Of a stretch of 64,000 nucleotides of DNA, positions 14,050 through 63,970 are shown one piece after another. Source of the stretch: Carcharhinus amblyrhynchos (taxonomy: Eukaryota); the NCBI GenBank assembly GCA_965287045.1, contig OZ336890.1, positions 19,716,001-19,780,000 of the forward strand, in the 5' to 3' direction. The notes beneath the pieces were generated by a model. It was not told the origin of the DNA, searched no databases, and saw only the letters and a list, made by a program, of their open reading frames with translations. Both the position numbers and the translations under genes were made by a program. Position 1 is the stretch's first letter; each line of letters begins with the position of its first letter.

Positions 14050-15185
14050 CTTTTGCAGCAGAACCTATGTCTGACCCCATGTTCCAGAGAGTTTCTTTTA
14101 ATGGAATTCAATCTCTGGCATTTTATTCTTGTCTATCCAAACGTAACTGGAGAATTACTATCAATGACTTCCATTCCGACAGTTTGCCTGGTGTCCAATT
14201 TCTCATTTGCCTGCTGCTTCTCATCACATCATCTAAAAAGTAAAACTTCAGTTTATACACATATGCTGACAGCGCCCAACATTACCTCACCACCTCCACT
14301 GCCTTCACATTGCCAGGCTGCTTATCTGATAACCAACACTGGCTAATCAGAAACTCCCTCACTTAAAATGATGGCTTCAGTTTTTCCAGTGTTTAAGACC
14401 CTGCCAGAAAAATCTGTTCCTTAATCACTGACTAGAGAGGAACCTTCAGTCAAGTATCCATACTATCATTAAAGCTGCCTATTTCTACTTCCATATTGGA
14501 CTTCATTCCTGCCTCAGCTCTTCTGCTGCTATAATCTTCATCCATGCAACTGTTGATTTTCCAATGTACTCCTTCTGGGCATGCATTCTAACCTCCATAA
14601 ACTTCAGAGGATCTGCTGTCCATGTCCTAACTTGCACCAAGCCCCATTCACCCATCACCCCAATGGTCATTGATCTATATTGACTTTCAATTAAATTTAT
14701 TTTAAAATTTTCATCCTTGTTTTCAAATTTCTCCATGACCTGTAAAGTTCTCCAAATGTACAACTTTCTGAAATACCTGCTCTCCTCTAATTCCAGCCTG
14801 TTGAACATCCCTGATTTTAATTGCACCTCCATTGGCTGCAGGCCTTTCATATGTCTATGGCCTAAGGTCTGGAATTTCCTCCCTAAATCTACCTCATGTT
14901 CCTCCTTGAAACCTACCACTTCAACCAAATTATTAGTAAAAGATAAAAACAAATTACTGCAGAAGCTGGAATCTGAAACAATGACAGAAAATGCAGGAAA
15001 ATCTCAGTATGTCTGACAGTATCTGTGGAGTCACAGCCAAGCTAACATTTCAAGTCTGGATGATTCTTTGTCAGAGCTAAACCATCTGCCCTAATACTTC
15101 CTTTTGCTGATCAGTGTCTTATTTTGCTTTGTAATGTCTCTGCTAAGTGCCTTGGGGTATCTTATTGTGTTAAAGGCGCTATTTA
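14050..15185 (+). mobile_element. Decayed L2 LINE 3' part, interrupted by a Penelope-like insert
   Basis: tatgctgacagcgcccaacattacctc resembles YADDTQLYL; typical L2 3' end aagtgccttggg...gttaaaggcgctat at about 15146-15182. Confidence 0.7.
14944..15080 (-). mobile_element. Penelope-like short insert with decayed hammerhead motif
   Basis: Same family as 26481, 49022, 52545; minus strand reads AGCT CTGACAA A GAATC ATCCA GACTT GAAATGTT AGCT (15040-15078). Confidence 0.65.
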
Positions 15186-15475
15186 GTCCATGCCTCTACA
15201 TTATTGGTTAGCAATACAAGCATACACCCTGCTATTCCATTTTCAACACTGAAACATTGAAATCTGGGTCTTTCTATTCCTTAGCCAGGAATGGTTGTTT
15301 TCTCCTGTTTCCATGATACCCTGATGCTGAAAGAGAATGAGTACAAGAGGGAGGGACATGAATAACAGCTATATGCCTAACGATGTTTATTGGCAATAGT
15401 TTGCGATACTGATCATGAACAGTTAATTTTGTATGCATTGTTAGTTGCAGAATAACATTACATTCGATCATTTAA

Positions 15476-15545
15476 GCAGTTTCCAGGAAACCAAAGTCTT
15501 TGGGTTCCAGGGGGAGTATGGTTGCAAAGCTGAAACTTAAAGGAA
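15476..15545 (+). rRNA. 70-bp fragment of 18S rRNA (isolated, non-functional rDNA-derived insertion)
   Basis: gcagtttccaggaaaccaaagtctttgggttccagggggagtatggttgcaaagctgaaacttaaaggaa matches the conserved eukaryotic 18S segment GCAGCTTCCGGGAAACC...CTTAAAGGAA with 3 differences against the recalled vertebrate sequence; flanks are not rRNA. Confidence 0.9.
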
Positions 15546-16279
15546 GAACTCCAGACTAATAACCAGCAAACAGAGGGAAAGTAATAAATATACTTTATTT
15601 CAATTCTTATCGTTTCTGATCAAACACATGATTGAGAAAGTGCAGCATATTCCTGCTCAAACACGAGGTGAAATGGGATGGTATTTCATGGGGTTACGAT
15701 CCTAATTCCCTCTGAACCGAATTTCTAAACTCATTCCATCAAAGGAAGGAAAATTAAGAGGGTGAAATCAAAGCTATCTGTACCATCAGTAAAAGTATTC
15801 TAAACAGATGTAAGTTTGGTCATGGTATTGACTCAATGATTCTATGTGAAATATATTTGGAAAAATTTAACTTGGTTCATCTCAATATGTGATTATGACA
15901 CATGTCTATAGTTGTTACATTAATTATCATTAAGTTCCCACATTAACAACAAGTTGAAAAAATATCATACGTTATTCACCATGCTACATAGAAACCAGCT
16001 GTTGCTCAATCCCCAACATCTCAGCCATCAGAACTGCATCCTTCCAATTCTTCAGAATCATCAGTCTCTTCCCTGTCATTTCATATCCACTGCCTCAAAA
16101 CCTACATCTAGGCTTCTGTGATTTATGGACTAAACTCTCCAGCTTCGTTCTCCCCATCCTCCTGATTTCCACTCTGCATTAACAGCAATAAGTCTAAAAT
16201 CTGCTGCCAGCGTCCTGTTCTAAAGTAGGTCCTGCAATCCTGCACCCCAGCTAAATTCACTGTTAACATTATTATCAAA

Positions 16280-23334: not shown

Positions 23335-23455
23335 GTGATGAAGGCCATTGACTTGGAACCTTACCTCTGTTTTTCTCTCTCTACAGATGCTGTCAGCCCT
23401 GTTGTGTATCTGTTTTTATTTCAGATTTCCAGGATCTGCTGTATGTTGCTTTATT
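23335..23455 (+). mobile_element. Penelope-like short insert, decayed hammerhead motif
   Basis: gtgatgaaggccattgacttggaacc followed by ctctctacagatgctg...atttcagatttccag, the reverse complement of the 26481/49022 family. Confidence 0.6.
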
Positions 23456-24834
23456 TTGCTCCTCCTCGCATACATTTCTTTTTGGTCTTTATCGTTCGTT
23501 GACAGTTGAACTTAGCAGGTACCACATGAAAATACTACGCCACGTCATTTTATCAGCCTAATCACTTCAACTCATTGTGTGAGAATGGAAATAGCTGAAC
23601 CGCTAAGCTGATGCCACTTCCTTATTAGTTTCTGCTGTTCGCATCTGATGTCATCTGAGCAAGATATTCACTCGAGAATGAAAAAAAGGCATAAAATGTA
23701 ATTATTCTGATACAAAAACTCTTTATATCAGCTTCCGCATGAGAAAATCTAACAAATGTTCGAGCAACTGAAACATCCAACAAACGTCGAGCATTCAACC
23801 CAAGCTACCTGAACATTAATGGTACCATTAATCCCTAACATAAGGCACGTAAGCACGTACCCCTTTTGAAATATTTTTTAAAATGAGCTATTTTATATTT
23901 AGAATTTCCACCTGGGGCTCAGTGTGAAATGCAACTTGAACAGCTTGTTGGCTGTCGTGGCTTCACTGACTTCATTGAATCTTGGATTGTGTGGTCGGTG
24001 TTATTCAAGGTCCAATTTTCCTATCACGTGCCCCGCCCCGCCCCCTTGTCGTTTAATCACGCAGAAGTAAAAAAAACAAGGGTTTGTTGAAAAGTGAACT
24101 GTGTGTGATTTTAGCAAAACACTTACCCACACCACATAGTGCAAATAATTAGCAAAGTACCTGTGGCCCCCAAATGAACAACCGACCAATTTTACACCGG
24201 ATAGAATGGATAGAATAGCGTCTGGGATTTAATGCTTTGTAGCGTTGAAGTTTTTATTTCTAAAAAAGATGCGTTCAATTTTTGGACCCCCTTTTCCCCA
24301 TTTTTCATTACATTTGGTGGGTTTACGAATGTTCATGGTGGTGAGTACTGGTGTCACAGAGTAGGTACATCTCATGATTTTCAGACTAATATTTGGACTC
24401 AACTTGTACCCTTGCCCCTCGAAGGATCCTTCACTCTTCCGTGTATGTTGCAATATATGCGAGAAGAACTGGTTCACATGCAAATTATGGATAAAAAATA
24501 TCCTGTAATTGTTTGTTAGCATACATCATGCTTTAACCTTGGTTAGAAAGAACTGATTAATGGTATCAAGTCTGATGAATAATCTGAACCCATTCTACTT
24601 CTGGTGCAGGGTTGAGGATGATCCAAAGGGCTGCTGTTTACATGGAAAAGGAGTTTGGAAACAAATGGGCGAACGTCAAAGGCTGGAGGCCATTGATATT
24701 TAATACGTCAGCCTCTCGTTCCTGTTGAAATTGTTGCCTTCTCCGGCTCTCCAAATTGGAGACAAATTTTTGTAAAGTCAATACCTTTAATCGCTTCGTC
24801 AGCAATGTCAAAGCACAAAAGATCCAGAAACTGG

Positions 24835-25410
24835 CAACCCACTCACCACCAGAATCACCCTGCCCCCACCCCATACACACAAAACCACCCCCACCCCAGA
24901 CACTCAGCAACAGAACCAACCTTCACAAACACACACTCTTACTTACACACACGTATACACAGAACCCCTCCCTGTCCCAACCACTCACCAACAGAACCAC
25001 CCTCCCCCCACACACAAAACCACCCCTACCCCAAATACACACTCACCAACAGAACTACCCTGCCCCCCCCCACATACACAAAACCACCCCTACCCCAAAC
25101 ACACTCACCAACAGAACCACCCTGCCCCACACACACTCATACATACAACCACCCTTCCCCAACACACACAAAACCACCCCTGCCCCAAACACACACCAAC
25201 AGAATCACCGTGCACCACACACACACACACACAGACCCCCCCCCCTCCTTGTTCCAAACTAATCATACAACCACCCTGCCCCACACACACACACTCGCAC
25301 ACACACCCTACCCTGCCTCAAACACACACACTCAGACACATACACAACACCCACTCCCTGCCGCAAACACCCCCGCACACACAGGATCAGCCTGCCCCAA
25401 ACACCCACAA
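24835..25410. repeat. C/A-rich degenerate minisatellite (about 55-60 bp unit)
   Basis: Recurring caccaacagaaccaccctgcccc...cacacaaaaccacccctaccccaaacacact; very few G on + strand. Confidence 0.9.
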
Positions 25411-25479
25411 TGTACCAGTGGACTGGGGATACAGCCGGGGTTGTGTGACACTGTGCTATGTGTGGGTGAGGCTGGGGAG

Positions 25480-25590
25480 CTCTATATCGGGGCGGGGCGG
25501 AATTCTACTTTCCACCGACAGTAGCCCCAGAAAGAGCCCGATATGCTCCCGGCGGTGGTGCCGGAGCCCGGGCTGTGATCTGACGCAAAT
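25480..25590. promoter_or_regulatory. GC-box/CpG-rich promoter- or enhancer-like element
   Basis: ggggcggggcgg at about 25489-25500, dense CpG, tgacgcaa bZIP-type site at 25581; a second cluster (cacgtg plus ccccgccccgcccc) at 24025-24045. Confidence 0.4.
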
Positions 25591-26480
25591 GGAAAATGTC
25601 TTCAGAGCTTAAAGAGGAATAATGTGCGTCAATGTCTGGTCTCATGCGAGCAGCACGGGCCACACCGAGCATAAGTAAGCCATTATTATAGATGGGTGCG
25701 CCGTCTGATGTTGAGTCAGAACTTGCTGCTGCATTTGAACATTCTGAAATGAACGTTGTAAATAAAATCATGGCAACAATAGCATGTATTGATAAAAAGA
25801 GAGCACATGGGGGTGTAGAATGAGTGAGACACTATTTAAGGATATCAAACGTGAATAATTCCAAAAGAAAGAGAGAGAGAACTGTTGAAACCAAATATTC
25901 TAGGATGTTGTGGAGTGAAATTTGAAATTCAGAATAGGTATGTTCTCTCTGTCTGCTTTAATTTGGCTAAAGGTTTAATTCGAAACGACAGGGAGAGGGT
26001 TTAAACTCGGCGAGGTGAACGAAATTTGCCTATGTCAGCGAGTGCACGGACCGGGCCAAGTCTGCTTTGACCTATGTGGACATACGGTATGGTGGGTGTG
26101 TAAATTGGGAATTGGTGTTTCAGAGACCCCCCCCCCCCCCCCCCCCGCCCCTCAATGCTAAGCCGCTAACTCTCTGCCGGAGATCAGAGAGATTGGCATC
26201 TGTACGCGGCTGACTGTTACTATAAATACACCACATTACAGCAACTGCGTCAGTCAATGCTGTGCACGAACAGCCAATAACACATTTCCACGGTCTCCAA
26301 ATATATAGATTAAAAAAACAGCCACATCTGGATAGAGTGTGGGCGGGGGTGAAGGGTAGGGGGGGGGGGGGTCGAGGTGTGTGTGTGTGTGGGGGGGGGG
26401 GAGTTTAAAGCGAAAGTGTTTCCCTCCCCTCGCTCCCAGTAAACACTTTCTTCATAACGAGATCAAAGAGAATGAAGCTT

Positions 26481-26601
26481 AAAGACAAAAACGCTGGAAA
26501 ATCTCAACAGGTCTGGCAGCATCTGTAAGGAGAGAAAAGAGCTGACGTTTCGAGTCCAGGTGACCCTTTGTCAAAGCTAAAAGGCATAGAAAGTGGGAGA
26601 T
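26481..26601 (-). mobile_element. Penelope-like short insert with 14-bp TSD
   Basis: agagaatgaagctt at 26467-26480 and 26602-26615 flank the insert; contains a hammerhead motif. Confidence 0.8.
26540..26578 (-). ncRNA. Minimal type I hammerhead ribozyme motif (U3-A8 variant)
   Basis: Minus strand: AGCU UUGACAA A GGGUC ACCUG GACUC GAAA CG UC AGCU, i.e. stem I, core, stem II, GAAA, palindromic ACGU in place of stem III, GUC cleavage triplet. Confidence 0.7.
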
Positions 26602-27467
26602 AGAGAATGAAGCTTTATTCCTGCCGCCATCTGATCTGACAGAAGCCGGGTGCAACTGACCTTTCCCCAGAACCAAGCTGTTGCTACTTAGATTTCTGTT
26701 CACTGAAACCTCACCCCCCCCCCACCCCCATCCCATTCTCTCTTTTCCAATAAACCGATCGGGGAAATCCAGCCTCCACCCTCTGTATCCCTGAAGCTGC
26801 CTTCAAGGAAGAGGCTTCGTTAAAACAGCTCACTCCAATGTTATATTGGAGTAATCTGGGGTTGGCTGCTGGAGATAATGAACTACATTAAAGAATCCGG
26901 ATCTGGGATGCAACAATGGAAGTGTTGTCCCGAGATTAATCTTTGAGAAGTCAGACCTAAAATCGGCCGATTTATTTGAAGAATGTTATATTTGCATCCA
27001 CGTGGGTTATCGTCAGATATCACAGCGGCTCCCAACCCAACATCTTGTGAACTGAGGTCTGGCGACGCAGCTGCAACCCTACAGCTGCTCATGTGTGCAG
27101 AGAAAGTCTATTCTCGGCGTGTTTCACTCTGACTGGTATCCATAGGGGCTTGCAGGGGGGACGGGGAGAAGTTTGAGTTCAGTGCAATGTTACCGAGATG
27201 TCGCCTTGAACTGCAAATCCAACATGAGGTGTGTATTGTGTTGGGTATTTGCATTGGACCCAGTGAGGGATGGACAGGATGCTATTTGCTCCGGTGAGAA
27301 TGCTGGTTCGACAGTCTGCCTGGTTCAATGCTGGTTGAACCTTCTCCTCGAAGCTATAATTCAGAGACCTGAGATTCCCTTTTAATCCATTCTCAAAGAT
27401 AGGAAACTGGATTCACTTTAGAAGCCCAAATGCACCTGTAAATCCGTTCCCAATGTCCATAAGGTTA

Positions 27468-27542
27468 AACCATGATGTGGAGATGCCGGCGTTGGACTGG
27501 GTGGGCACAGTAAGAAGTCTCTGGTGTTGTGAGACTTCTTAA
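27468..27542. mobile_element. 75-bp collapsed inverted Penelope-like insert with 10-bp TSD
   Basis: cataaggtta at 27458-27467 and 27543-27552; internal inverted repeat taagaagtctc / gagacttctta. Confidence 0.75.
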
Positions 27543-28304
27543 CATAAGGTTACGTTATAGGTCAATAATTCTAAGTCTATTGACAGGATTACAACACTTG
27601 AGAAATATAACTGCATTTCCATCGACCAACCTAGGAACTGTCCCCAATTGATCGTTGTTGGAGAGAATAGCTACAGTTTCACAAACAGACTGTAAAATAG
27701 CCGTATTCCCAAAGGGACAACTGCAATAAAGGTTGGGACTACCTTTAGGGTTCTGAATTAGCCACATCGGTTTAGGTTTTCGAATAATACTTCATAAAAG
27801 ATACCGTCACATCAAAGGGGACAGAAAGAAACTTAAATGAGGATGTGAAATGGAGGCACCAGTTGCTGTGCAGATGGTGTTGGGGAGGTCCCAAGAACTG
27901 CAGCGTTTCCGGTTTAACTCACGATGCAAGGAGATTTTAACCGAAAGCGCACGCAGGCTGGAGTCAGTGCCAGGGCTGCCTCGGAGTGTGCTGGGGTGCG
28001 GGACACTGTCACATTCTAAACCAGCAGGGACTTGCAGTTTTGCAAACGATCCTTTGTTAGTATCTCCACATTTAGAACAAAAATGTTGAGGTTTGTGCAG
28101 AATGCAAATAAGCATTAAGCCCTGCTCGGTCAACAGCCCAGCTGAGGAGCTTGGAAATGTTTCTCAGTGATAGAGAATCCGTGACACTGGATCAAAATGG
28201 CGGATATTGAAAGTTAAATATAATCAAATCCTTCGGCGCTGACATTAGACATAACTGGTGTCCCGATGCTTAGGTCAAGATTTGACATACATTGAACTTG
28301 TTCT

Positions 28305-28600
28305 GTTTTTTAACTCACTCGTGGGATGTGAGAATCGCTGGTAAGACCAGCATTTATTGCCCATCCCTAATTGCCCTTCAGAAGGTGGTGGTGAGCTGCC
28401 TTCTTGCACCGCTGCAATCCATGTGGTGTACATAGACTCACAGTGCCGTTGACCCACCCACCATGAAGAAATGGCGATATATTTCCTGTCGTGCGCCTTG
28501 AAGGAGAATTTGCAGGTGGTGGCGTTCTTGCTGCCCTTGACGTTCCAAGTGGGAGAGCTCAGGGTTTGGGGGGTCTTGTGGAGGAAGCTTTGTCAAGAAG
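28305..28600 (-). mobile_element. LINE 3' end (same family as 16616-17545)
   Basis: ccagcatttattgcccatccctaattgccctt...ggtggtggtgagctgccttcttg. Confidence 0.75.
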
Positions 28601-30119
28601 ACTCCTTGTGTACAAGTGAATTTGAGCAAGCTCGCCTCCTTCTGCAGATGTTAATATAAATAAAGTGTCTCCCTTAACATCAGAGTCGTAACACTGGAAA
28701 GGACAGGCAGTAGAAGATTGAAATTCACTGCACAAGAAACTCAGATCTCCCCATGTTCACGTCAAAATGTTTTTAAAAAGTAACTGTCAGACAATACTGC
28801 CAATTATAGCCCAGAGTTCACAAAGAAATCGTGTCTGCGCCCAGGCACATTTTAACAATCGCGTCTATCGCCAATCTTTTAATTAAAACAAATGCATCCA
28901 GAAGCCATTTGTTGAAGAAAATTAGCATACTACCTCTACTTAATTGCCCAATGTGTTGTGCATCATGTATTATTTTTACGATCAGAACTGGACACGTATT
29001 GATTAGTAATCAATATCTTTTAAATCCTAATCATGGACTTTATTCCCCATGATGTGCCAGTGATGCACATTACATGGTAAATGCGAATGATCCCTTTCTT
29101 CCCTCTGATTTACACTTTTCATTTTTATTGTGCCACTAGGGTCCTTTAGCTATTTAATAATGTTGACAAATGTCAAGTATACATATTTTCAACAACCGTA
29201 TTAATCAAGCGTACAGATGATGATTTACAATGAGCGCGTCGAGAGAATAAGGGGAAAAAAGACTCAGATATCAACAACTGTCTGCCAGGAAATGATTGTT
29301 GATTGCAAATGGAGAAGAGTTTCGTTGTTAAGGTCAAACCGCTCAACCACAGCGAGGGGCAGGTGGCTCACTGTCTGATCTGTGTTAGTAAAATTAACGT
29401 GAACTCTGAGGACTGGGGTCGAAAATGAAGGAAACTGCTGATCAAGGTGGCACGCGGTCTGAAAGGGCAGAAGGCTGAATTTGAGGGTTAAGATCTATAA
29501 CCTTCAGCATTTACAGAAGAATTTGCTACACTATTGATTAGTTGCAAAATGGCCATGAACTAAGCAACAGACATGGCTATTGGTAGGTTGCTATAGCACC
29601 TATCTCCCATTGATTTATTGAAAACCTCTGTTTTGTCGATTTCAATGCTAATAACACGACTGCAGTTGACTTGAACAAAAGAATACCCCCTCGCAAACTA
29701 AATGCATGAGAATCGGTATTTCCAATCACCTTGGCAAACTATATTGTTAGGCAATTGAACGATGGACTTCTGAGCAAAACCGATTCCTGCGGCAAAGGCG
29801 TTCACCATGAAGTCCTGTTTCATTTATTCGGTGGGGATCGCAACAATTCGTCAGCTTGTGATTTTCCTTGTAGTCCTACCTGCAGTAGGATGGTTGCATA
29901 GCTGACCTCAGGGAGGACAGTTTTGACCGGTGCTCTACCGAGAACTCAGCTGAAGATTAGTCACTCAAATCACAAAATAAACTCAAGTCATTTGGATTAA
30001 AAGTCAGCAGTTGTCCCCGAGTGTTCTTAGCCACTGCGATACTACGCCCTTTCCGCCCCCTCAAGTCTCTTTTGCAGATGTCGGGTGGATGAATATCGAT
30101 GTACAGTCAAAAAGTCCGA

Positions 30120-30260
30120 AAAACGTGCTACCTAGGTGCATTGTCTATGCTAAATTCTCCCTTAGTGTACCCCGACAGGCGCCGGAGTGTGGCGACTAGG
30201 GGATTTTCGCAATAGCTTCATTGCAGTGTTAATGTAAGCCTACTTGTGACACTAATTTCA
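30120..30260 (+). mobile_element. 3' half of SINE of the 11120 family
   Basis: aggtgcattg...gacaggcgccggagtgtggcgactagggg...gtaagcctacttgtgac. Confidence 0.8.
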
Positions 30261-33200
30261 AAAAAAGGTTAAAGGAGTCAACAATGCATCAAACTTAATT
30301 GCCAAGAATCGGTTTCGAAGTTCTTCCAAAACCAGACAACAATAGAACCCATATGAACCCCCAAGAATTCTAACACATGCAACTATTAGCATGCAATCAA
30401 AAGATCATCGTTGGAACTTTAATGCATTTGGTGTCCAAAGCTGTTAAAAGTAGTGGAGGGATTATCACCAATTACATCTGGATGCAACCATTACACTAGT
30501 TGCTCACCCCTTAATCGCGCATTCACTCAGGACAGGCAAAGAAATTGGGCTAGTTTACGAAAAGGCAAAGATTTCCTTCGGGCAGTGGATCACTATAGCC
30601 ACAGTGACCTCCTCTCACCAGATCTAGCTCGCACACCTTATAGAACTGATAGGATCTCGTACAGTATGTTGTTGGGTTGATGGTCTTTTGCTCGAATGAA
30701 ATATGAATATTAGCGCTCTTGTTAGACTTGTGTCACACACAGAACCTGGAACGAAAGTATTGTCCAGTCCTTTATGCGAAAACATTGGAATTTAGCTGGC
30801 TGGATAAATCAGAGAGTGGCAGGTCAACTGAGCGGGGGTGGGGTGGGGGGGGCGAATACTGAATCTGTTGCAACTAAAAGCCGCATTACGAACATTCAAA
30901 ATACACTGAATGCTTTGCCTTTTCTGAATTTATCAGGTTACCTCCTTGACAAGCTCTAGGTCCAATTTGCATATGCTAACGTACAAGACATGTACGGCAC
31001 ATACCGCTAATGATCAAATGAAATACAAGTGCTCAGAAAATGGCGGTTTCTATCTTGGCTGTTTTGCTGTCTTCTCTGTTAGTTTCCTAATGGAGGAGCT
31101 GTCTGGAGTGGTGGTGAAAAAATAAGATGTCGAGAGATCACATTTTGATCTGGACACTGATGTACTTGAGATTGTGTATGACAGAGTTGCTCAAACATAT
31201 AAAATGCATCAAAATGAAAGATTCACTCGAGATTTCACGTGTCTCGTTCACTTGATTTTAAATGGGATAAATGCTGATTTGTCCCATTGTGGATATAAGG
31301 GCTGTTCTGTGGATCTGGAAAGATCTTGAAATTAACCCCTTACGACTCGCTTTCCATAAACTTTCTTGTTAATAAAAGGTCGAATGAATCGAGCAATTGG
31401 AACAGCACATTCGGTCTCGTGTTTCTAGCCATCTTGAAAAGCTGCATGCATCATCAGAACTGGTAACATGACCCATATTTGTCGGATGGTGACACACTGA
31501 TTGCTCAGGTCAGCAATTGCTACTGGAACCTTATTTTTAACAGGAATTCTTCGAAGCCGAATAGCTTATTAAATAGTTCGCAGAAAACTGCTATAGATTG
31601 GTGGTTCTGTGTAATGTCGGATTCAGGACTCTCCGTTATAAACTGGGTATGAAAAACATTGGTTAAATAATAGTTTTAAGAACGTATTGACCACAAAAAC
31701 ATACATTCCAATCAAAGATTATCAGATATTTTCGCTCAATAAGTTCTTTTTGACGTGTTTTCAAATCAGCTTGAACAAACGTTGGATTCTAATATTTGGT
31801 GTTTTACACGTCCCCTTTACTCGGCGCCCTACATGTAGTCTCCTTTCCTCATGATTACACATTATCAAATAGTACAGCCATTGAATCCAAAGACCTATTC
31901 TCATTAAGTTCGGGTAATTTGAACGATAGTTTATGAATGGGTTTTCACATGGAACCAATGGAACCACTAAATAGTCATATTTAGATGTTTTGCAATTGGC
32001 TTGACGTCTGGACTCCTTCCTGAGAAAGAGAAACCCTTCCCCATGAACTCGTTCCCCTCTTTCATTATTTGACCCATTGCTATTACCTGCAAGAAAACAT
32101 GGTAGTCAGGTTATCTTTTGACATCGAAGTGAGATTATTTTTTTCACTTCCCCCGTCGCCGTAATTTTGGAATTGGTGTTTGCTGACTGGTTGATCCATT
32201 AACTAACTAAACAAATAGCAAGCTCAATATGACTCATTCCAACAAACAGTTGTAGCAATTTGTCCCATGTACCTGAAAAAAAATCAGCCAGATTCTCATT
32301 GGTTTGGGCAAGGCATCATGAGTATTGCCCATTACTGCTTCCATCGGGTGTATTAACCGTTATCTAAAACAACATTTTTGGAATAACATTGGACAGCTGG
32401 CGAACAAAATTCCGACCAACCTTTGAACTTGAGTACGTATGCACGTGAACCTTCACAATGGAAGGAAGTTTATGAAGTTTCCGATACTCCACAGAAAAAT
32501 TCATTACAGAAATTGCTATTTAAAACAAAACGTTCCATGTTGGCCATTATCCACGCTCTGAAGATTAGCTGAGAACATCGGAGATCCAATCACACCATGT
32601 AACATCGATCCAAGACCTTCAGAGAAAATGCTCACAATTGATGTTTTCACTACACAGTAGTAGCCATCCGTCATTACATAGTGTTAAAATAGCAAAATTG
32701 ACTGAAATATGGAGTATAATAGTATTTGATGCTTTATTATTTTATGGTAGACTGTAAGATGGTCAATATTGTAAACCTTCTGTTGGTCATTGATGAGTTG
32801 AATTCTGTGAAAATCTGATATATTTCATGATAACGACCACCTCAAAGCACAGATATTTTGTAATATAGTTATTGTATATGGATCCAGATATCATATAGCT
32901 TCAAATTAACTTAATCCTCACATATGACAAAAGATTAATCCATAGTCACCAGTTGCAACTTGAAGCAATGCAGTTCTTTGCACTAAAGTAGGAGGAATTT
33001 CAATGTTGATATCTAAAAGCTTGACATTCTACAAAAGCTATCATCTCATGAAGCACTATGATGAATTTGTCTGAACTTCAAGTTGCCTTCCAGGAATACA
33101 ACATTCATTTGTTTGTCCTCTGACATCCTTGTACAATGTTACAAATTGGACAAGTGAACAATAGTGCATCAGCCAGAATAAATAACATGGAATTTAATGG

Positions 33201-33584: not shown

Positions 33585-34678
33585 TTCTTAGAGAATGAGT
33601 TTGGATCCATACAGAAAAAAAAAATTGTGTTTCATTGTGGGATTATCAGCATCCACTGTAGAAATTGTGGATGCTGGTATTTTCCAGTTGGTCTATCTGC
33701 GTAATGATGGCAACACTTTGCTCTGCAATGTTGAGCCAGATGTCATTATCTTCACTATTGGCATTATGATTTCACCAGTTTGAGGGCATCACTTTGAGAG
33801 TGACACATAGATGTGGGAATTAATCTGGGAATTCATAACAAGGAACTTGGAATTCATAATTTTTATGTCAACATGTAGTGATTTACAAGAAATGATGTCC
33901 TAAGGTGTAGGAATGAATAAAACGAGGTCAAAAACGTACTTGAGTCAGAAATTTTATACGAATCCCAGAACTCTTTTAAAATGTGGGCAAATCGTTTGTG
34001 TAAAGCTAATCATTGAGATTTAAAGAAAGCTGGCCACTGTCACTTCTCTGGAAAAACATTAACACGTCTTCTAGTAGAATCATATTGGTATCTTTTTTAA
34101 CCTACTGCTTGATCAGTTCAGAGGTCAATAAATACAGAGAAGGAATCTTCAATTGCAAATCCAAGAAACATTATATTACCCCCACAGGTCAAAATTCTGG
34201 TTAATTATAGAAACACTAACCTTTAGTTTGTTGAAATAAATCAAATTAACTAAATAGTTATTTAAAAAAGAATTTCTTTGCTTCTCAAAATGTCCAATAA
34301 TACATATTGTAATTCAATGGTATGGTGCAATGATACTGAAGCCAATATGGGGATGTTGAACTAAGATATACCATTGTCTTAGCAAAATTATGTAATACTA
34401 AGAATGTAATCAAGATATCCAGTACGATTAACACAATAAGGTCCTAGTCATGAATTCCAAGATTAATTTCCACATCAATATATCAATCTCAAAGTGATGC
34501 CAATAGTGAAGATAATGGCATCTGGCTGAACATTGCAGAGCAATGTGTTGTCACCATTATGCAGATAGACCAACTGTAAAATAACAGCATCCACAATTTC
34601 TACAGTGGATGCTGATAATTCTACAATGAAACACAATGTTTTTTTTTTCTGTATGGATCCAAACTCACTCTCTAAGAA
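33585..34678. repeat. Inverted duplication: arms 33585-33848 and 34438-34678, spacer about 590 bp
   Basis: The arms align as reverse complements at roughly 85-90% by eye; mirrored peptides appear in the ORF track (33595 + and 34475 -). Confidence 0.95.
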
Positions 34679-38062: not shown

Positions 38063-38131
38063 ATGGAGTTGCCAGCGGCGGGGGAGCACGTCTTTGCCGT
38101 GGAGAGCATCGAAAAGAAACGGATCAGGAAG
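38063..38131 (+). CDS. CBX4: Chromobox protein homolog 4 (Pc2), exon 1
   Basis: gttATGG Kozak context; MELPAAGEHVFAVESIEKKRIRK; donor AAG/gtaatg. Confidence 0.97.
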
Positions 38132-38229
38132 GTAATGTGAGCAGCTCCGGCTCACCTCGCCACGTTATTGACCGGCAATAGTGCTGTCTGTGCCTCTCAC
38201 TGACGAACGCTGTCTTTATTTCTCCACAG

Positions 38230-38273
38230 GGGCGGGTCGAGTACCTGGTGAAATGGAGGGGATGGTCTCCGAA
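38230..38273 (+). CDS. CBX4: CBX4 exon 2 (chromodomain)
   Basis: Acceptor tttctccacag; GRVEYLVKWRGWSPK with aromatic-cage W32/W35; donor gtgagt. Confidence 0.97.
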
Positions 38274-38643
38274 GTGAGTCCCGTTTCTGTATGTTATTTA
38301 TGTGTGTTGGAGATGAACTACAGTATGTGTGAGTGTGTGTGTGTGTGTACAGAGTGGAAGTCTTGCGGGACCCAGTCCGTGTCCCTTCCCTGACAAAATG
38401 CCACCAGTGAATTGGCAGTGGATAACCAATGTAACACACACACAAAATAAAATGGCCAATGGGAGTCCTGGAATGTCTTGTGGACTGTGAAAGATATGAT
38501 AGTGTGTGAATGGAGTGAAAATGGCCTCCCTTTGCACACTGCTTGAATGGCAGCACTTTTAGTTCGTTTTAATTTTCCGCTTGTGTGTGTGTGTGTGTTT
38601 TGAGAGGTCTTAAAGTGAACTGCTGATGTATCCTTCTCCGCAG

Positions 38644-38709
38644 ATACAACACGTGGGAGCCAGAGGAGAACATCCTGGACCCCCGGTTGCTCCTGGCTTT
38701 CCAGCACAG
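38644..38709 (+). CDS. CBX4: CBX4 exon 3 (chromodomain C-terminus)
   Basis: Acceptor ccttctccgcag; [22 protein letters not shown]; donor gtaaat. Confidence 0.97.
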
Positions 38710-41060
38710 GTAAATGCATAGATGGGGGTAGGTGGGTGGGGGCGGGGCGGGGCGGGGCGGGGGGGGGGGAGCAGTTGCACGGGGGTGGGGGGGCTGGGAA
38801 AACTCTGCCACTAGCCTGAACGCGTACACACACCCTTGGGTTATACTGTATGGTATATACAGAGAGAGAGAGGACCAAAAGTCGAGAGCTTTCGAAAGTA
38901 GAGTGGCTGCACAGTTTCGTAATGAAACTAGAATAGAAGGCTGCTATAAATGTGGTCGAAAGGATTGGAGAGTAGCCGGGATCGAGCGACTTAGCGAAGC
39001 ACATCCACCTCGAAATGTGTCAAGTTAAGATCCCCGCTACTACAAGGGAGGAAGGAGAGAGGGATCGATAATCAGCTGGTAGCGTTACGGCTCCAAATAC
39101 CAGTATGTTTCCTGCCATGGTGGAAGTTGAAATTGTGCAGCAACATGTAAAGAAGCAATGATAAAATCTCAGAAATATCGGCGGAATAGATGCAGGGATA
39201 TAAAAGTTTTTTTAAAAAACGTTTTTAACCACTGCTGCGGTGGTGATGTAAGTGTTGATGCGATGTTCCAGATCGTAGCTAGATGGTGCATTCATCTCCG
39301 AAGTGAGACTCGGGTAAGGAGGTTCTAGGCTGTCAGAACACAGAACGTCCTTCTAGCTATAACCTGTTTTTAATGGCCTTCTCTCGCCACTTCTGCTCCC
39401 TGATGCACCTGCGGGTGCATTTTAAAGGAGCGATGCTTGTTGTGCCTGACGTTGCAACCTGCATAAATGGGCAGGAGACGCGGGGTTAGGTATCCTCTTT
39501 AATTAGGTACACGATAATCGATCTGACGGGTTACCATGGCTGCCTGCAATCATGTGAATAAATATAGTGGAGCTAGGCTGCGTGAAACCGGGTGGGAGGG
39601 ACAAAAAAGTTGCTTATCACTAGACCTTCGTAATATGGGGATAATTGGACTGGCAGCGGAGTCAGGGATACGTGTTATTTTACAGTAAGTTTAAATATTT
39701 GCATATTAGGCGAAAATGACTATTATCTTGGTTTAAATGCGATTAACGAGACCCTGCAGGACAAGAGGAGGGCCAGTGATTGCAACAGCAATATCCTTTC
39801 TCTCCCGCTGCCAGTTACAAGACGGTTGCAATTACTCAAAATTAGCTAACCAATAACTTCTGCATATTTTGACTGAGTTGCAGGAGCACTGAACATATAA
39901 CACCAATAAAATCCCCCCACTTTGTGTAAAAAAGGCAACTTTAATCATTGCACTTCTCAATGTAGTGATTGCCAAAGTATCCCTGTACTTGGTATGTTGC
40001 ATTCGAGGTCCTTTTATGGTAGTAAGAATGCAAAAGTCTGATTTCAATTAATTCAACAGTACAGTTTCACACTGAGAGATTTAATACAAAGCATTGGAGT
40101 CCTATGCAGAAAAATCAATTATCAAAAACAACTGATGCATGCTCAATGGCATAATTGCATACTGACTTAAATTCATTTAACAGTGATAAATGGATAGTAT
40201 GAAATGTCACAAAAACATTAGTGAACTGTACAAGGGAGCCAAAGAGAAAAGGAGTGAGTTGTTATCCTGGCTCAAAGTTGATATTCGATTTTTTTTTGAA
40301 TGTATACATTACGTTACAACAAAACCACAGTTATTAGCAAACTGATGAGAATTAATGATTGTTTCTTACTTTTAGGATTCATGTGCTGATATTTTGATTG
40401 TTCATTGCTGTGTAATGCTGTGGTACAGTTGAAACAGCTCTATGTATTAATATATTGGACATCTCAGAATGTACTTTAGAGTGATTTTGAATTAATATTC
40501 CATTTATGTATGCAAAATTTGGCAATGAGTAGAGAAAGGCATATAATAAATTGGAATATGAGCAGTAAATGAAAAGTGGTGGCTCTTTCAAACTATGCGG
40601 ATATAGGAATAAGAAGGGTTATCCTGAATGTGAGCTTGTTAGATCACACAAGATTTTTTCAGAGCCAGATTTGGCCACTGAAAAGCAATTGAGATTGCCC
40701 TCTCACTAAAGGTTTACAAAGCATTATTACAATTATAGACCATTGTGTGGGCAGTTTACTTGTTATATAAACTCCTTTATAGCACCCCTCTCCACAATAA
40801 AATGCAAAACTTGATTCTGCATCACCAGTGACAATCTAATCTCAGTTGGCTACACAAATGTAAACATTTAATTAAAATTGTCAGAGTACTTAGTGAGTGT
40901 TTAAACTAAGAAGGTTTAGAGATAACATGTATAATATAGTGAAACCAAAGATTGCAAGTCTTTTTGGGGTTGGGAGCAGAAAACAGTTCTTAAAATGATT
41001 AGTAATTTAATTATTGTAAGTGACTATAATGCTAACCTCTCTTTTAACCAATGACCACAG

Positions 41061-41127
41061 GGAAAGACAAGAGCAGTCAATGGGCTATCGTAAGCGAGGA
41101 CCAAAGCCCAAACACCTACTGGTTCAG
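41061..41127 (+). CDS. CBX4: CBX4 exon 4 (AT-hook-like motif)
   Basis: Acceptor gaccacag; ERQEQSMGYRKRGPKPKHLLVQ; donor CAG/gtaata; phases consistent with exons 3 and 5. Confidence 0.96.
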
Positions 41128-42082
41128 GTAATATTATCTGTCTAATGCTCATTTGTGTGTTAAATATGAACCAGATTTGAGCAATCTATCACATACTATC
41201 TGCCTTCATATAATCAAATTGAATTCAGTTTCACAAATATATTCTCAGCCACCTTGTATACTTACTTAGAGCAGGCAGTTGTGAAATGTCAGTGTAATAT
41301 TATAAAATAATGTTGACATAGATCTTAGAACACAAGGGAGCCTGTTGCTGAAAGGCATAAATAGATCTGGAAAAACAGATGCACATTCGAGTATAAAATT
41401 AACTGAATTTATTTTATTTCAACTATAATATTGTTTTGAAAATAACATATAAAGCATGTTTAAATAGTAGATTTCATGCTGCCAGATACAGATCAGTAGA
41501 TTTTCAATCTCTTAATGATCCCAATTTGCAAATGCAATCACATCCATCTAAAACAACCAGGCACTGGTTCATTTTTTTAATGGATTCATAAATGAATAGT
41601 GAGTATTCAAAGCAACATCGACCGTAAGTAACCAAAAACAGCGTCCCTCTTCAGGGACACCAACTTCAAGCTGGTGTCCATTGCTGCCGAACGTTTGGTG
41701 CTCACGGTTGAATGGGTTAGTAACAACTGTTGTGATGGAGTGGCTGCTGGTTGCTTTGATACAACAACCAAGAAGAAACCAATGGTTGGCTCCACGCATG
41801 GGTTCCTCCTCAACATATAAAGCGTATTGACAGTGGAATCGACCTTGCCTCTCCTCAGCTGGGAATGGAATCTGGCAGGCCGGTGAAGTGAGACAGATAA
41901 AGGTGAAAATGTAACCCATTTCTCTTTTGGGCCTTGCACCAAAGGCAAAACCCCCATTTCAATGACGATTGGATAAATGAAGATCTGCTCGCCAGATTTA
42001 AGTTGTAGTCTTGCCTTTTAATTAATTGACTACTTACCAGAATTTGAAACCCAAATAATAATCATCTATTCTTCATTTGCAG

Positions 42083-43486
42083 CTGCCAGCTTTTGCTCGT
42101 CGCTCGAATGTTCCCTCGGAGCTGCAGGATCCGAGTGTGGATGAAGAGCGGTCCAAGAACGATATCCAGCAGCCGCCCATCAAACGGCAATACCAACTAA
42201 ACAGCAAAAAGCTTCACCAGTACAAGCCCTGTAACACTGAGGAACAACGCCAGCATCAAGCTACTAAACACTTCTACCAGCTCAACAGCAAGAAGCATCA
42301 CCATTATCAGCCGGACATCATGTACCCCAATCAACAGGCCGACTCTCACCGAAGCGAAACTGAAGTGAACCACGAACAGCATCAACCTATTCCGGAGCAG
42401 GAAGCAGAGCAGCATAGCTTTCTAAAGAATGGGAATCACAGCCCCGCTGTAGGTATGGAGAAGTCTGAAGTCAAGGAGATGGATTCGAAATCCGGGAACG
42501 GGCCAGAACTAGACAAGGAAAGTGTGAAAAACAATGGCATGAATGGTAGAATGAAGATAGTTAAAAATAAAAACAAGAACGGTAGGATTGTAATAGTCAT
42601 GAGCAAATACATGGATAATGGGATCCAGTCGGCGAAGGATAAACACAGTAAGAACGGGGAAGGAGGGAATGAGTCAGTGGCGAGCAAGACTGGAGACCGG
42701 GAGCTGTGGATAGTTAAAAACGGATATGGCAAAACGGTTGCGGCGGAGGACAGAGTAGAAAGGGGCGAGGATAATAATGCTACAAATGGGAAGCAAGAGA
42801 CCGCTAAGACTCGGAATGGCAACAAAGAGGCGGAGGCCGATAAGAATGGTTATTTTAGGACTTTGGTGGCTAAAGAGGCGGTAGCTGCAGCGCCAAATAA
42901 AAATATGAACGGGGAGGTAGCGGAGAAAGGGAGTGTCCAGATAGCAAGTGGGAAGGAGATGAGGACTCAGAAGGAAGCCTCGGGGCAGGAGCAGTGTGAA
43001 CCGGCAGCTCCAGTGCGATGGGCCTGTGATTCGGAGGTTTCCAGGAGGGATGGCTTATACTCCAAACTGTCCAAGTCCAGGAAACGCTATTTGTCCGAAC
43101 CCATCGTGGAGAAAGAGGCCAAGAAACCCACGACGTGCAGAAGCATCAGTGTCCCGGGAAGCGCAGTCCAGCTGGAGCAGGAGGATCTCATTGAGCTGCA
43201 GGGGATCGATAGTTATCGGAATGAGGGGATTGATGGCTCTTTGCACTCAAATCCTGAGCAGCCAATCGATTTGAGCTGTGTAAAGTCCAGGCCAGAGCCC
43301 CAGAAGGCGGCGGCGGCGGCGGCGGCGGCGCAGCAGCAGCCGGAGAGTGAGGAGAAAGACGGGAGGGCGAGGGGAGAGCAGCAATATCCATGGACTGGCC
43401 TCAAACCTTACCTGGGAAACCTGATAATCACAGATGTCACAGCGAACTGCCTCACGGTTACATTTAAGGAATATGTGACGGTGTGA
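42083..43486 (+). CDS. CBX4: CBX4 exon 5 (SIM, CtBP-binding motif, C-terminal Pc box)
   Basis: Acceptor cttcatttgcag; LPAFARRSNV, two YQLNSKK repeats, MKIVKNKNKNGRIVIVMSKYM, RKRYLSE, PIDLS, GNLIITDVTANCLTVTFKEYVTV-stop, all diagnostic of CBX4. Confidence 0.98.
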   Translation: MPAFARRSNVPSELQDPSVDEERSKNDIQQPPIKRQYQLNSKKLHQYKPCNTEEQRQHQATKHFYQLNSKKHHHYQPDIMYPNQQADSHRSETEVNHEQHQPIPEQEAEQHSFLKNGNHSPAVGMEKSEVKEMDSKSGNGPELDKESVKNNGMNGRMKIVKNKNKNGRIVIVMSKYMDNGIQSAKDKHSKNGEGGNESVASKTGDRELWIVKNGYGKTVAAEDRVERGEDNNATNGKQETAKTRNGNKEAEADKNGYFRTLVAKEAVAAAPNKNMNGEVAEKGSVQIASGKEMRTQKEASGQEQCEPAAPVRWACDSEVSRRDGLYSKLSKSRKRYLSEPIVEKEAKKPTTCRSISVPGSAVQLEQEDLIELQGIDSYRNEGIDGSLHSNPEQPIDLSCVKSRPEPQKAAAAAAAAQQQPESEEKDGRARGEQQYPWTGLKPYLGNLIITDVTANCLTVTFKEYVTV

Positions 43487-46289: not shown

Positions 46290-47640
46290 GGAAGTGAACT
46301 GGTGAAGGCAATATCTTACCCAGTCTCCCAGTCAGATCGGTGGAGATATTATCACCCAGTCAAACTGGTGAAGATAGTATCACCCAGCTTTATAGTTAAA
46401 CTGGTGGAGACAGTATCACCTAGCATAAGAACATAAGAAATAGGAGCAGGAGTAGTCCATCTAGCCCTTCGAGCCTGCCCCGCCATTCAATAAGATCATG
46501 GCTGATCTGAAGTGGATCAGTGCCACTTTCCCGCTTTCTCCCCATAACCCTTAATTCCTTGTCTGTCAAAACCTATCTACCCGTGACTTAAATATATTTA
46601 GTGAGGTAGCCTCCACCACTTCAACGGGCAGAGAATTCCAGAGATTCACAACCCTTTGAGTGAAGAAGTTCCTCCTCAACTCCGATCTAAACTGCCCCCC
46701 CCTTACCTTGAGGTTGTGCCCTCTAGTCCTGCTGTCCTTTTTAAGCGGGAAGAATCTCTCTACCTCTACCCTATCCATCCCCTTCATTATCTTATACGTC
46801 CCTATAAGATCCCTCCTCATCCTTCTAAACTCCAACGAGTACAGACCCAGTCTATTTAGTCTCTCTTCATAGTCTAACCCCCTCATCTCCGGTATCAGCC
46901 TAGTGAACCTAGCGTCCCAGTAAAACTGGTGGAGACAGTATCACCCAACTTTCTAGTTAAACTGGTGGAGACAGTATCACCCAGTCTTCTAGTTAAACTG
47001 GTGGAGACAGTATCACCCAGTCTTCTAGTTAAACTGGTGGAGACAGTGTCACCCAGTCTTCTAGTTAAACTGGTGGAGACAGTATCACCCAGCCTTCTAG
47101 TTAAACTGGTGGAGACAGTATCACCCAGCCTTCTAGTTAAACTGGTGGAGACAGTATCACCCAGCCTTCTAGTTAAACTGGTGGAGACAGTGTCACCCAG
47201 TCTTCTAGTTAAACTGGTGGAGACAATTTCATCTAGTCTCCCAGTTACACTGGTGGAGACAGTATCACCCTATCTCCCAGTCAAATTGGTGGAAACAATA
47301 TGAGCCAGTCTTCTAGTTAAACGGGTGAACATAGCCTCACCCGGTCTCCCGGTTAATCTGGTGAACACAGTATCACCCAGTCGCTAGTTAAACTGGTGGA
47401 GACAGTATCACCCTGTCTTCTAGTTAAACGGGCAAACACAGTCTCACCCGGTCTCCCGAGTAATCTGATGAACACAGCATCATCCAGTCTCAAGTGAAAC
47501 TGGCGAACACTATCACCCAGTCTCCAGTTAAAACTGATGGAGAATGTATCACCCAGTCTCCCAGTTAAATTGGTGAACATAGTCTCACCCCGGTCTTGCA
47601 ATTGGTACACGTCCGGTTATCTGATCAATTTAAACCACCG
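46290..47640. repeat. 36-bp tandem repeat array, interrupted by a CR1
   Basis: Unit ctagttaaactggtggagacagtatcacccagtctt; near-perfect at about 46950-47220, degenerate at both edges. Confidence 0.95.
46425..46910 (-). mobile_element. Young 5'-truncated CR1 LINE
   Basis: ORF 46566-46886 (YEERLNRLGLYSLEFRRMRRDL...RTRGH...FFTQRVVNLWNSLP); (ttcttatg)n tail; acctagc at 46418-46424 and 46907-46913. Confidence 0.95.
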
Positions 47641-49021: not shown

Positions 49022-49153
49022 GACTAAAACACTGCGGATGCTGGAATCTGAATCAAAAACAGAAAATGCTGGAAAACCTCAGCAGGTCTGGCAGCATCAG
49101 TGGAGAGAGAATAGAGCCAACATTTCAAGTCTAGATAACCCTTCGCCAGGGAG
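49022..49153 (-). mobile_element. Penelope-like short insert with decayed hammerhead motif
   Basis: Same family as 26481; minus strand CTGGCGA A GGGTT ATCTA GACTT GAAATGTT GGCT; approximate TSD tttaaa(a)gggg. Confidence 0.7.
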
Positions 49154-52544: not shown

Positions 52545-52650
52545 CAAACAAAAGGAGAAAATGCTGGAAAATCTCATCAGGCCTGACAGCGTCTATAGAG
52601 AGAACAGAGCCAACATTTCGGGTCTGTATGATCCTTCGTCAGAGCTGAAG
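52545..52650 (-). mobile_element. Penelope-like short insert
   Basis: Same family as 26481; gttttacc on both flanks. Confidence 0.7.
52608..52646 (-). ncRNA. Minimal hammerhead motif (canonical C3-G8 core, partly decayed)
   Basis: Minus strand: AGCU CUGACGA A GGAUC AUACA GACCC GAAA UG UU GGCU. Confidence 0.6.
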
Positions 52651-57466: not shown

Positions 57467-57705
57467 AAACAGAAAATGCTGGAAATACTCAATAGGCCCG
57501 GTGGCTTCTAGACAGTGAGAAACAGTGTTGACATTTCAGATTGATAACCTTTCGTCAGACTGACAAAACAGTTCAGTTGCAATGAAAGGTCATCTACCTG
57601 AAATGTTCATTTTGTTTCCTTCTCCCTGGATGGTGCCTGACCCGCTGAGTATTTCCAGTATCTTCTGCTTTTATTTCAAATTTCCAGCATTTGCATTATT
57701 TTGCT
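57467..57705. mobile_element. Inverted pair of Penelope-like termini (palindromic element) with two hammerhead motifs
   Basis: cagaaaatgctggaaatactca ... tgagtatttccagtatcttctg; minus strand CTGACGA A AGGTT ATC AATCT GAAATGTC (57527-57560) and a decayed plus-strand copy at about 57579-57610. Confidence 0.75.
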
Positions 57706-63448: not shown

Positions 63449-63970
63449 ACATAAGAACATAAGAAATAGGAGCAGGAGTAGGCCATCTAGCCCCTCGAGC
63501 CTGCCCCGCCATTCAATAAGATCATGGCCAATCTGTCGTGGCTCAGTTCCACATTCCCGCCCTCTCCCCATAACCCTTAATCCCCTTGCCTATCAAAAAC
63601 CTATCAACCCGCGTCTTAAAAATATTGAGCGAGGCAGCCTCCACCACCTCATCGGGCAGAGAATTCCAGAGATTCACCACCCTTTGAGTGAAGAAGTTCC
63701 TCCTCAACTCCCTTCTAAACCACCCCCCTTTATCTTGAGGTTGTGCCCTCTAGTCCTACTGTCCTTTCTGAGCGGGAAGAGCCTCTCCACCTCTATCCTA
63801 TCCATCCCATTCATCATCTTATACGTCTCAATGAGATCTCCCCTCATTCTTCTGAACTCTAACGAGTACAAGCCTAGTTTATTCAGCCTCTCCTCATAGT
63901 TCAACCCCCTCAACTCCGGAATCAGCCTAGTAAACTTCCTCTGCACTCCCTCCAAGGCCAAAATAAACTT
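63449..63970 (-). mobile_element. Young 5'-truncated CR1 LINE
   Basis: LEGVQRKFTRLIPELRGLNYEERLNKLGLYSLEFRRMRGDLIETYK; cataagaa tail; candidate TSD tggtaa at 63443-63448 and 63971-63976. Confidence 0.95.

What the first reader, a model, noticed from the sequence alone, without database searches (positions are those of the whole stretch)
26540..26578. Hammerhead copy with compensatory U3-A8 core (UUGACAA instead of CUGACGA)
Seen: this is the best-preserved copy (fully paired stems, intact ACGU, GUC triplet, 14-bp TSD), yet its core differs from the copies at 52608 and 57527 at exactly positions 3 and 8. Established: C3-G8 is a tertiary Watson-Crick pair in the active hammerhead and U3-A8 preserves pairing. 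Inference: a subfamily-level compensatory change would indicate selection on catalysis. Caveat: G8A alone can arise by CpG decay (as at 15040-15078), so two independent decays are possible.
Basis: partly seen in the sequence, partly recalled or inferred. Interest (0 to 1): 0.7.

Follow-up and report, generated by a model that had tools for sequence, protein, structure and literature searches.

The report
Shark Penelope subfamily's swapped ribozyme pair
This short remnant of a Penelope-type jumping gene carries a hammerhead RNA motif whose unusual U-A core pair is the norm for a whole subfamily of such elements in this genome; the swap likely reflects selection to keep the ribozyme working, but the same swap is already published for another animal and this lone copy is predicted to be inert.

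Summary
In detail: a minimal type I hammerhead on the minus strand (26540-26578) with U3-A8, inside a 121-bp insertion with a 14-bp target duplication. It is the 5'-truncated end of a Penelope-like element with Neptune-type motifs. U3-A8 is not double decay. It is the fixed state of subfamily A: exact genome counts are U3A8 873, C3G8 136, C3A8 158, U3G8 26. Of 51 hammerheads reached through the ORF, 48 are U3A8 and none has C3. C3A8 is mostly CpG decay of older subfamily B (mirror product 144). No intermediate subfamily and no second origin were found, so the hundreds of exact copies record one event. All six A/B differences in the motif respect the fold (simulated chance 0.2-0.3%), modest support for selection. 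Activity is untested; the monomer is predicted to misfold. U3-A8 is already published for Schistosoma Penelope hammerheads, and this scan reached the same verdict in another genome (e1-7789481). Possibly new: a TATAAAT conserved at -30 and copy 5' ends piling at the motif's first base suggest the element's RNA starts with the ribozyme.

The parts
26481..26601 (-). Solo, 5'-truncated end (pLTR fragment plus tail) of a Penelope-like element, subfamily A; begins just downstream of the subfamily's TATAAAT, so it lacks it
   Evidence: 95% to the subfamily A majority sequence; long A copies link this end to RT and GIY-YIG remnants
26540..26578 (-). Minimal type I hammerhead motif: U3 (26574), A8 (26569), bulged A (26567), helix II (26562-26566 with 26552-26556), ACGU palindrome (26545-26548), C17 (26544)
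   Evidence: architecture matches the min-HHR description in PMC4209133
26467..26480 (.). Target-site duplication, left copy (14 bp)
26602..26615 (.). Target-site duplication, right copy (14 bp)
15040..15078 (-). Subfamily B copy with C3-A8 (CpG decay of C3-G8), in CpG-poor DNA (o/e 0.11)
49115..49149 (-). Subfamily B copy, C3-G8, truncated at position 3
52608..52646 (-). Subfamily B copy, C3-G8, U17, G1.1
57467..57670 (.). Inverted pair of element ends of an older family; the minus-strand motif (about 57526-57562) has C3-G8
23335..23454 (+). Decayed element end of an older family

Best explanation
The locus is a 121-bp truncated end of a Penelope-like retroelement whose U3-A8 hammerhead core is the fixed state of subfamily A; the core likely changed once in the ancestral element, and was likely kept paired by selection on a ribozyme that would act only in the element's RNA, not in this solo copy. 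Shown: element identity, subfamily fixation, CpG origin of most C3-A8 copies, no sampled intermediate clade. Inferred: C3-G8 is ancestral (subfamily B and an older family both have it); G8 likely went first through its CpG and C3 followed; no mismatched stage left a detectable burst of copies. Inferred from published systems: cleavage would need a second motif (ACGU palindromes forming helix III) and probably the element's protein. Inferred from a TATAAAT at -30 and piled-up 5' ends: the RNA likely starts at the motif's first base, and most solo copies are run-off cDNAs of uncleaved RNA.
For: Exact counts on one background: U3A8 873, C3G8 136, C3A8 158, U3G8 26; odds ratio 29. Background outside positions 3/8: 28 of 30 U3A8 loci are type A, 30 of 30 C3G8 loci type B. 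Core left free on the A background: 93 of the first 100 of 751 are U3A8 (hand tally). Reached through the ORF: 48 of 51 U3A8, 0 with C3. In 1.024 Mb found by the tail only: A 9 of 10 U3A8; B 0 of 22. A tree built without positions 3-9 puts all 29 U3A8 rows, this copy included, behind one 98/86 branch. The mirror CpG product C3-U7-G8 numbers 144; CA 23 vs TG 32 on the B background, p = 0.28. Six A/B differences, all fold-compatible, simulated chance 0.2-0.3%. An older family swaps helix I pair 2.2/1.2 to U-A (8 of 17 loci show the matching 5' strand; the 3' strand was fixed by the pattern). Two public DNA data sets (organisms A and B) show no other letter above 5% at 26574 or 26569 among contigs at least 85% alike.
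Against: One event only: a search for U3A8 on other helix II sequences gave 66 hits against 14 control, and 26 of the 30 inspected were again subfamily A, the other 4 matching neither A nor one another. That both 3 and 8 are among six random changes has a 2-4% chance alone. The simulation is post hoc, uses one lineage pair, and ignores promoter or protein-binding constraints. In a type III hammerhead only the G3-C8 swap rescued strongly (PMC9901934, passage). Hammerhead mutants did not impair insertion by the anole element in vitro (PMC11167929). Within A, C3A8 is about 5% (5 of 100; 8 of 30 loci), more than A8G (1 of 100), though absent from the ORF-linked set. Copies beginning at the cut site are not enriched (3 of 41).
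Confidence: 0.72

Rival explanations
1. Two independent mutations in this copy (CpG decay G8A plus a sporadic C3U) produced U3-A8 by chance.
For: It does happen on the B background: 3 of the first 100 of 344 copies are U3 with A8, about what independence gives (Fisher p = 0.15).
Against: This copy is subfamily A at loop II, 17, 1.1 and in the tail, and differs from the A majority at one loop base within the motif; A is U3A8 in 48 of 51 ORF-linked copies.
Confidence: 0.02
2. U3-A8 is a neutral founder trait: the ribozyme did not matter for spread of subfamily A, the two changes rode along, and the restored pair is a coincidence or serves another constraint (promoter, protein binding).
For: Single origin; 2-4% chance that both sites are hit among six changes; hammerhead mutants did not affect insertion in vitro (PMC11167929); Naiad elements spread without canonical hammerheads (PMC8557442, passage); positions 3 and 8 lie close to the presumed RNA start.
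Against: No invariant core base changed and no helix pair broke between A and B (0.2-0.3% by simulation), while 23 nt just upstream differ at about 10 sites. The same swap arose separately in Schistosoma elements (PMC4209133).
Confidence: 0.2
3. U3-A8 was favoured because it weakens the ribozyme (or removes a hypermutable CpG from the core), sparing the element's own RNA from cleavage.
For: U3-A8 gave no strong rescue in one mutagenesis set (PMC9901934); genomic copies derive from uncleaved RNA (3 of 41 starts near the cut site); G8A has hit 23 of 100 B copies.
Against: A plain mismatch would weaken it more simply; C17 is the commonly favoured cleavage base (own knowledge); no rate data here.
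Confidence: 0.06

Closest known systems
U3-A8 minimal hammerheads of Schistosoma mansoni Cercyon Penelope-like elements (Cervera and De la Pena 2014, PMC4209133; read parts 1-2 of 4, searched one supplementary table)
   Same: Minimal type I motif in the element end, short helix I, extra base between 9 and 10.1, G10.1-C11.1, palindromic 15.2-16.2, mostly solo copies, and the same U3-A8 covariation (about 1,300 hits there).
   Different: Here a vertebrate (cartilaginous-fish-like) genome and a Neptune-type element; helix II is 5 bp, not 7-8; here the variant is resolved to one homogeneous subfamily with its C3-G8 relatives and decay products counted.
Natural U3-A8 hammerheads (Perreault et al. 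2011, PMC3088659; one passage read)
   Same: C3 and G8 covary to U3 and A8 in several natural examples; the paper states such ribozymes were shown active in vitro.
   Different: The passage gives no subfamily analysis; here the motif lacks helix III.
Poseidon element of Anolis carolinensis, PAc (Frangieh et al. 2024, PMC11167929; read parts 1-2 of 4)
   Same: Hammerhead in the pLTR, internal start of reverse transcription giving a tail, copies made from uncleaved RNA; the 3/8 pair matters for cleavage (single mutants dead, G3-C8 partly rescued, protein needed).
   Different: PAc has C3-G8 and its ORF starts at stem II; this element has a C-x4-C-x2-C linker (Neptune type) and no ATG within the motif.
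Neptune clade of endonuclease-bearing Penelope-like elements (Craig et al. 2021, PMC8557442; passages read)
   Same: RT followed by CX2-5CxxC linker and GIY-YIG with two internal cysteines, DKG motif, inverted 5' ends, tail.
   Different: No tree with reference elements was built, so Neptune versus Nematis is by motif only.

Membership tests
Endonuclease-bearing Penelope-like element | RT followed by C-terminal GIY-YIG endonuclease in one ORF, upstream of the 3' end | tested here: met
   Long A copies: RVT_1 E = 2e-4 in L227, GIY-YIG E = 0.004 and 0.016 in L202 and L219, all below Pfam's curated cut-offs; L227 holds both regions in one 557-aa frame; 256 homologues at E <= 1e-20, some with both domains. 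Not in the focal copy itself.
Endonuclease-bearing Penelope-like element | 5' truncation, inverted upstream copy, tail, target duplication | tested here: met
   Inverted ends in L178 and many loci; two 3' end classes near +100 and +134; 14-bp duplication here
Endonuclease-bearing Penelope-like element | Intact full-length element with two direct pLTRs | tested here: inconclusive
   Longest open frame 557 aa among 150 scored of 22,053 candidates, against about 900 aa in homologues; no direct 5' junction found among held loci
Neptune clade | CX2-5CxxC linker before GIY-YIG | tested here: met
   C-x4-C-x2-C in L202, L219, L230, L235 and others; definition from PMC8557442
Neptune clade | Placement in an RT tree with reference elements | not tested
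   No named reference set held
Minimal hammerhead (min-HHR) | Core box, GAAA, A15.1-U16.1, H17, 3/8 Watson-Crick pair | tested here: met
   Sequence; U3-A8 variant as in PMC4209133
Minimal hammerhead (min-HHR) | Helix I 4-5 bp, helix II, bulged base after A9, G10.1-C11.1, palindromic 15.2-16.2, no helix III | tested here: met
   Helix II pair probability 0.99-1.0, helix I 0.43-0.89
Minimal hammerhead (min-HHR) | Self-cleavage (dimer or protein-assisted) | not testable with these tools
   Needs an assay; the monomer is predicted to pair its core with GUC (0.95), as the B motif also does
Non-LTR retrozyme | Tandem repeat with at least two complete hammerheads | tested here: not met
   Single motif between target duplications; criterion from bioRxiv 10.64898/2026.07.22.740005 (passage)

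The most novel reading that the evidence does not exclude
In shark Neptune elements the RNA begins at the first base of the hammerhead, 30 nt below a conserved TATA box, so the ribozyme is a 5'-terminal switch that can cut off the capped first 35 nt of its own message; subfamily A crossed the C3-G8 to U3-A8 valley without amplifying a mismatched stage, which would make cleavage essential to the element's life cycle in vivo even though it is dispensable for insertion in vitro.
Probability: 0.25. Interest if true: 0.6.

Novelty: new member of a known kind. Interest (0 to 1): 0.3.

Why it matters
What hammerheads do for Penelope-like elements is still unclear (PMC8557442), and in vitro they are not needed for insertion (PMC11167929). 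A compensatory swap of the 3/8 pair fixed in a large vertebrate subfamily is indirect evidence that the active fold mattered during spread, and gives a natural four-variant panel to assay. The swap itself is known, so the gain is a cleaner case, not a new kind of thing. The TATA and 5'-end pattern, if confirmed, would say where the motif sits in the RNA.

Tried and rejected
Rfam scan of the window: no hammerhead family hit. Folding energy as evidence: not above shuffles for the 39-mer or the 121-mer. Phage collection: no match, uninformative. Pfam on four short decayed ORF pieces: nothing; longer frames gave weak hits. A second U3-A8 family with another helix II: not found in one pattern search limited to ACGU-containing motifs with two helix II endings. 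A C3-A8 or U3-G8 intermediate clade within A: no private variants (best uncorrected p = 0.03 over about 570 tests), no excess of B alleles, no higher divergence in 8 and 17 copies; scattered in the tree. The raw 2x2 p-value (3e-68) was rejected as evidence of selection because copies are not independent. Local selection on this copy: rejected, its CpGs lie in a CpG-retaining domain (o/e 0.54 against 0.11 at 15040). RNA evidence: no RNA holder listed. Three kinetic papers on the 3/8 pair (PMC1986816, PMC2151028, PMC2271363) were not held, so no U3-A8 rates were seen. Supplementary file 1 of PMC4209133 (the alignments) could not be searched and may show shark or further U3-A8 motifs. Paper searches showed no report of a shark U3-A8 motif or of a TATA box at -30; the library lacks most subscription journals, and one search listed only 10 of 2,058 loosely matching papers.

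Full report
Observation. The minus strand of 26540-26578 is a minimal type I hammerhead with UUGACAA in place of CUGACGA, a bulged A, a 5-bp helix II with one G-U pair, GAA-ACGU-C and a 4-bp helix I. It lies in a 121-bp insertion (26481-26601) between exact 14-bp repeats. The motif does not fold better than shuffles and Rfam misses it; it is real because it is a repeat: 873 exact matches in the 2.92-Gb genome, 0 for the reversed pattern.

What the element is. Some copies with this core extend more than 1.4 kb upstream into decayed RT and GIY-YIG coding sequence. Longer frames give weak Pfam hits to RVT_1 and GIY-YIG, below the curated cut-offs, and 256 homologues at E <= 1e-20, the closest named ones from sharks and rays. 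A C-x4-C-x2-C linker precedes the endonuclease, which PMC8557442 gives for Neptune and Nematis and not for Penelope/Poseidon (passages). Inverted 5' ends and tails are frequent. The focal copy is a solo truncated end. No intact ORF was seen among 150 scored of 22,053 candidates.

On one fixed background the four states number U3A8 873, C3G8 136, C3A8 158 and U3G8 26; independence predicts 777, 40, 254 and 122. The association reflects two subfamilies that differ at about 14 further sites in 110 nt. Of 30 U3A8 loci 28 are type A, 1 B and 1 unclear; 30 of 30 C3G8 loci are B; the 30 C3A8 loci are 20 B, 8 A and 2 unclear; the 26 U3G8 loci are 18 A and 8 B. With the core left free, 93 of the first 100 of 751 A-background matches are U3A8, 5 C3A8, 1 U3G8 and 1 C3G8 (hand tally). 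Fifty loci reached through the ORF (30 returned, 20 more picked from its list) gave 56 motifs; 5 were dropped as misaligned or deleted, and of 51 kept 48 are U3A8, 1 U3G8, 2 have a purine at 3 and none has C3. In 1.024 Mb searched with a tail-only model (window plus 96 stretches chosen by coordinate), 94 hits gave 52 assignable copies: 9 of 10 A copies covering both sites are U3A8, and 0 of 22 B-like copies are. A tree of 134 rows built without positions 3-9 places all 29 U3A8 rows, this copy included, behind a 98/86 branch with 16 U3G8, 5 C3A8 and one long-branched C3G8 row; support values are rough. Contigs of two public DNA data sets show no other letter above 5% at either site.

CpG decay. 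On the B background positions 7-8 read CG 36, TG 32, CA 23, other 9 in the first 100 of 344 (hand tally), and the mirror product C3-U7-G8 numbers 144 genome-wide. So most C3A8 copies are decayed B. U3 with A8 on the B background occurs in 3 of 100, near independence (p = 0.15).

Direction and age. An older family has C3 in about 12 of 17 loci, so C3-G8 is likely ancestral. Tail divergence from the majority sequence is about 8% for A and 12% for B: A is younger but not recent. Only 4 of 66 unselected A copies match the exact pattern, so A probably has on the order of 10,000 copies (rough). The focal copy keeps its CpGs in a CpG-retaining domain (o/e 0.54 here, 0.11 at 15040) about 11.5 kb upstream of a CBX4-like gene; that and its subfamily explain its good preservation.

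Is it selection on catalysis? All copies descend from one change. A search for U3A8 on other helix II endings gave 66 hits (control 14); 26 of 30 inspected were A and the other 4 matched neither A nor one another. No mismatched clade was found in A: 8 C3A8 and 17 U3G8 copies show no private variants, no excess of B alleles and no higher divergence. A and B differ at six of 39 motif positions (3, 8, two loop bases, 17, 1.1); all keep the fold, which six random changes do 0.2-0.3% of the time, while merely hitting both 3 and 8 has 2-4%. The older family has U-A where A and B have C-G in helix I (8 of 17 loci). This is modest, post hoc support from one lineage pair. Against it: hammerhead mutants did not impair insertion by the anole element in vitro (PMC11167929, parts 1-2 read), and in one type III hammerhead only the G3-C8 swap rescued strongly (PMC9901934, passage), although PMC3088659 states that U3-A8 ribozymes are active in vitro (passage). 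No U3-A8 rates were seen.

How it likely works. Published minimal hammerheads show no activity as monomers and low activity as dimers (PMC4209133); the anole motif needs the element's protein. The focal monomer is predicted to pair its core with GUC (0.95), as a B copy also does, and no partner motif lies beside it, so it is probably inert. Both subfamily majority sequences have TATAAAT exactly 30 nt above the first base of helix I, though the 23 nt between differ at about 10 sites; 37 of 65 A and 7 of 20 B copies retain a TATA match. Copy 5' ends cluster there: 26 of 41 starts between -30 and +39 fall within -5 to +6 (p = 5e-11 against uniform), 3 of 41 near the cut site; 10 of 38 pattern-selected A copies start exactly at 0; loose ends and strand-switch joints pile at 26578 in both public data sets. 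Caveats: local alignment ends are fuzzy, older families with a different upstream sequence inflate the B peak, and the AG there could instead be an intron end (as in Drosophila virilis, PMC4209133) or the AGCT palindrome could favour fold-back joints. The simplest reading is that the RNA starts at the ribozyme and short copies are run-off cDNAs from an internal start in the tail; this is inferred, with no RNA data.

Comparison and verdict. U3-A8 in Penelope minimal hammerheads is published (about 1,300 hits in Schistosoma mansoni), and natural U3-A8 was reported in 2011. My paper searches showed no shark case, within the library's limits; supplementary file 1 of PMC4209133 was not searchable. 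Earlier notes of this scan file these motifs as Penelope ends and one reached the same U3-A8 verdict in another genome. New member of a known kind; interest 0.3.

Noticed in passing
L001-L373 (subfamilies A and B); window 26578: TATAAAT exactly 30 nt upstream of helix I in both subfamilies, and copy 5' ends piling at the first base of helix I: likely transcription start of the element.
   Followed up: partly
window 38075-43486 (+): CBX4-like Polycomb gene: chromodomain exons near 38090, 38242, 38654 and 41092, last exon 42062-43486 with the CBX C-terminal motif; the name CBX4 is from recalled sequence likeness.
   Followed up: partly
window about 23500-32500: Broad CpG-retaining domain (o/e mostly 0.5-0.77) upstream of the CBX gene; may be regulatory.
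   Followed up: no
window about 15470-15550 (+): Short 18S rRNA fragment.
   Followed up: no
window 33585-34678: About 1.1-kb element with long inverted arms (93-98% complementary), MITE-like.
   Followed up: no
window 46835-47590: 36-bp tandem array beside a repeat that recurs at 63450-63935.
   Followed up: no
tail of subfamily A versus B (about +56 to +125): An ATG after a polypyrimidine-CAG opens a frame that meets TAA after about 22 codons in A but reads on in many B copies; whether this is the ORF start was not resolved.
   Followed up: no
L264-L293 and the list: About 20 subfamily A copies have GACCUG rather than GACUCG at the end of helix II, more than two independent changes would suggest; possibly a minor sub-lineage with G10.2-C11.2.
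   Followed up: partly
L016, L018, L066, L113, L121 and others: Many copies are fold-backs whose joint lies at or near the AGCT palindrome of helix I.
   Followed up: partly
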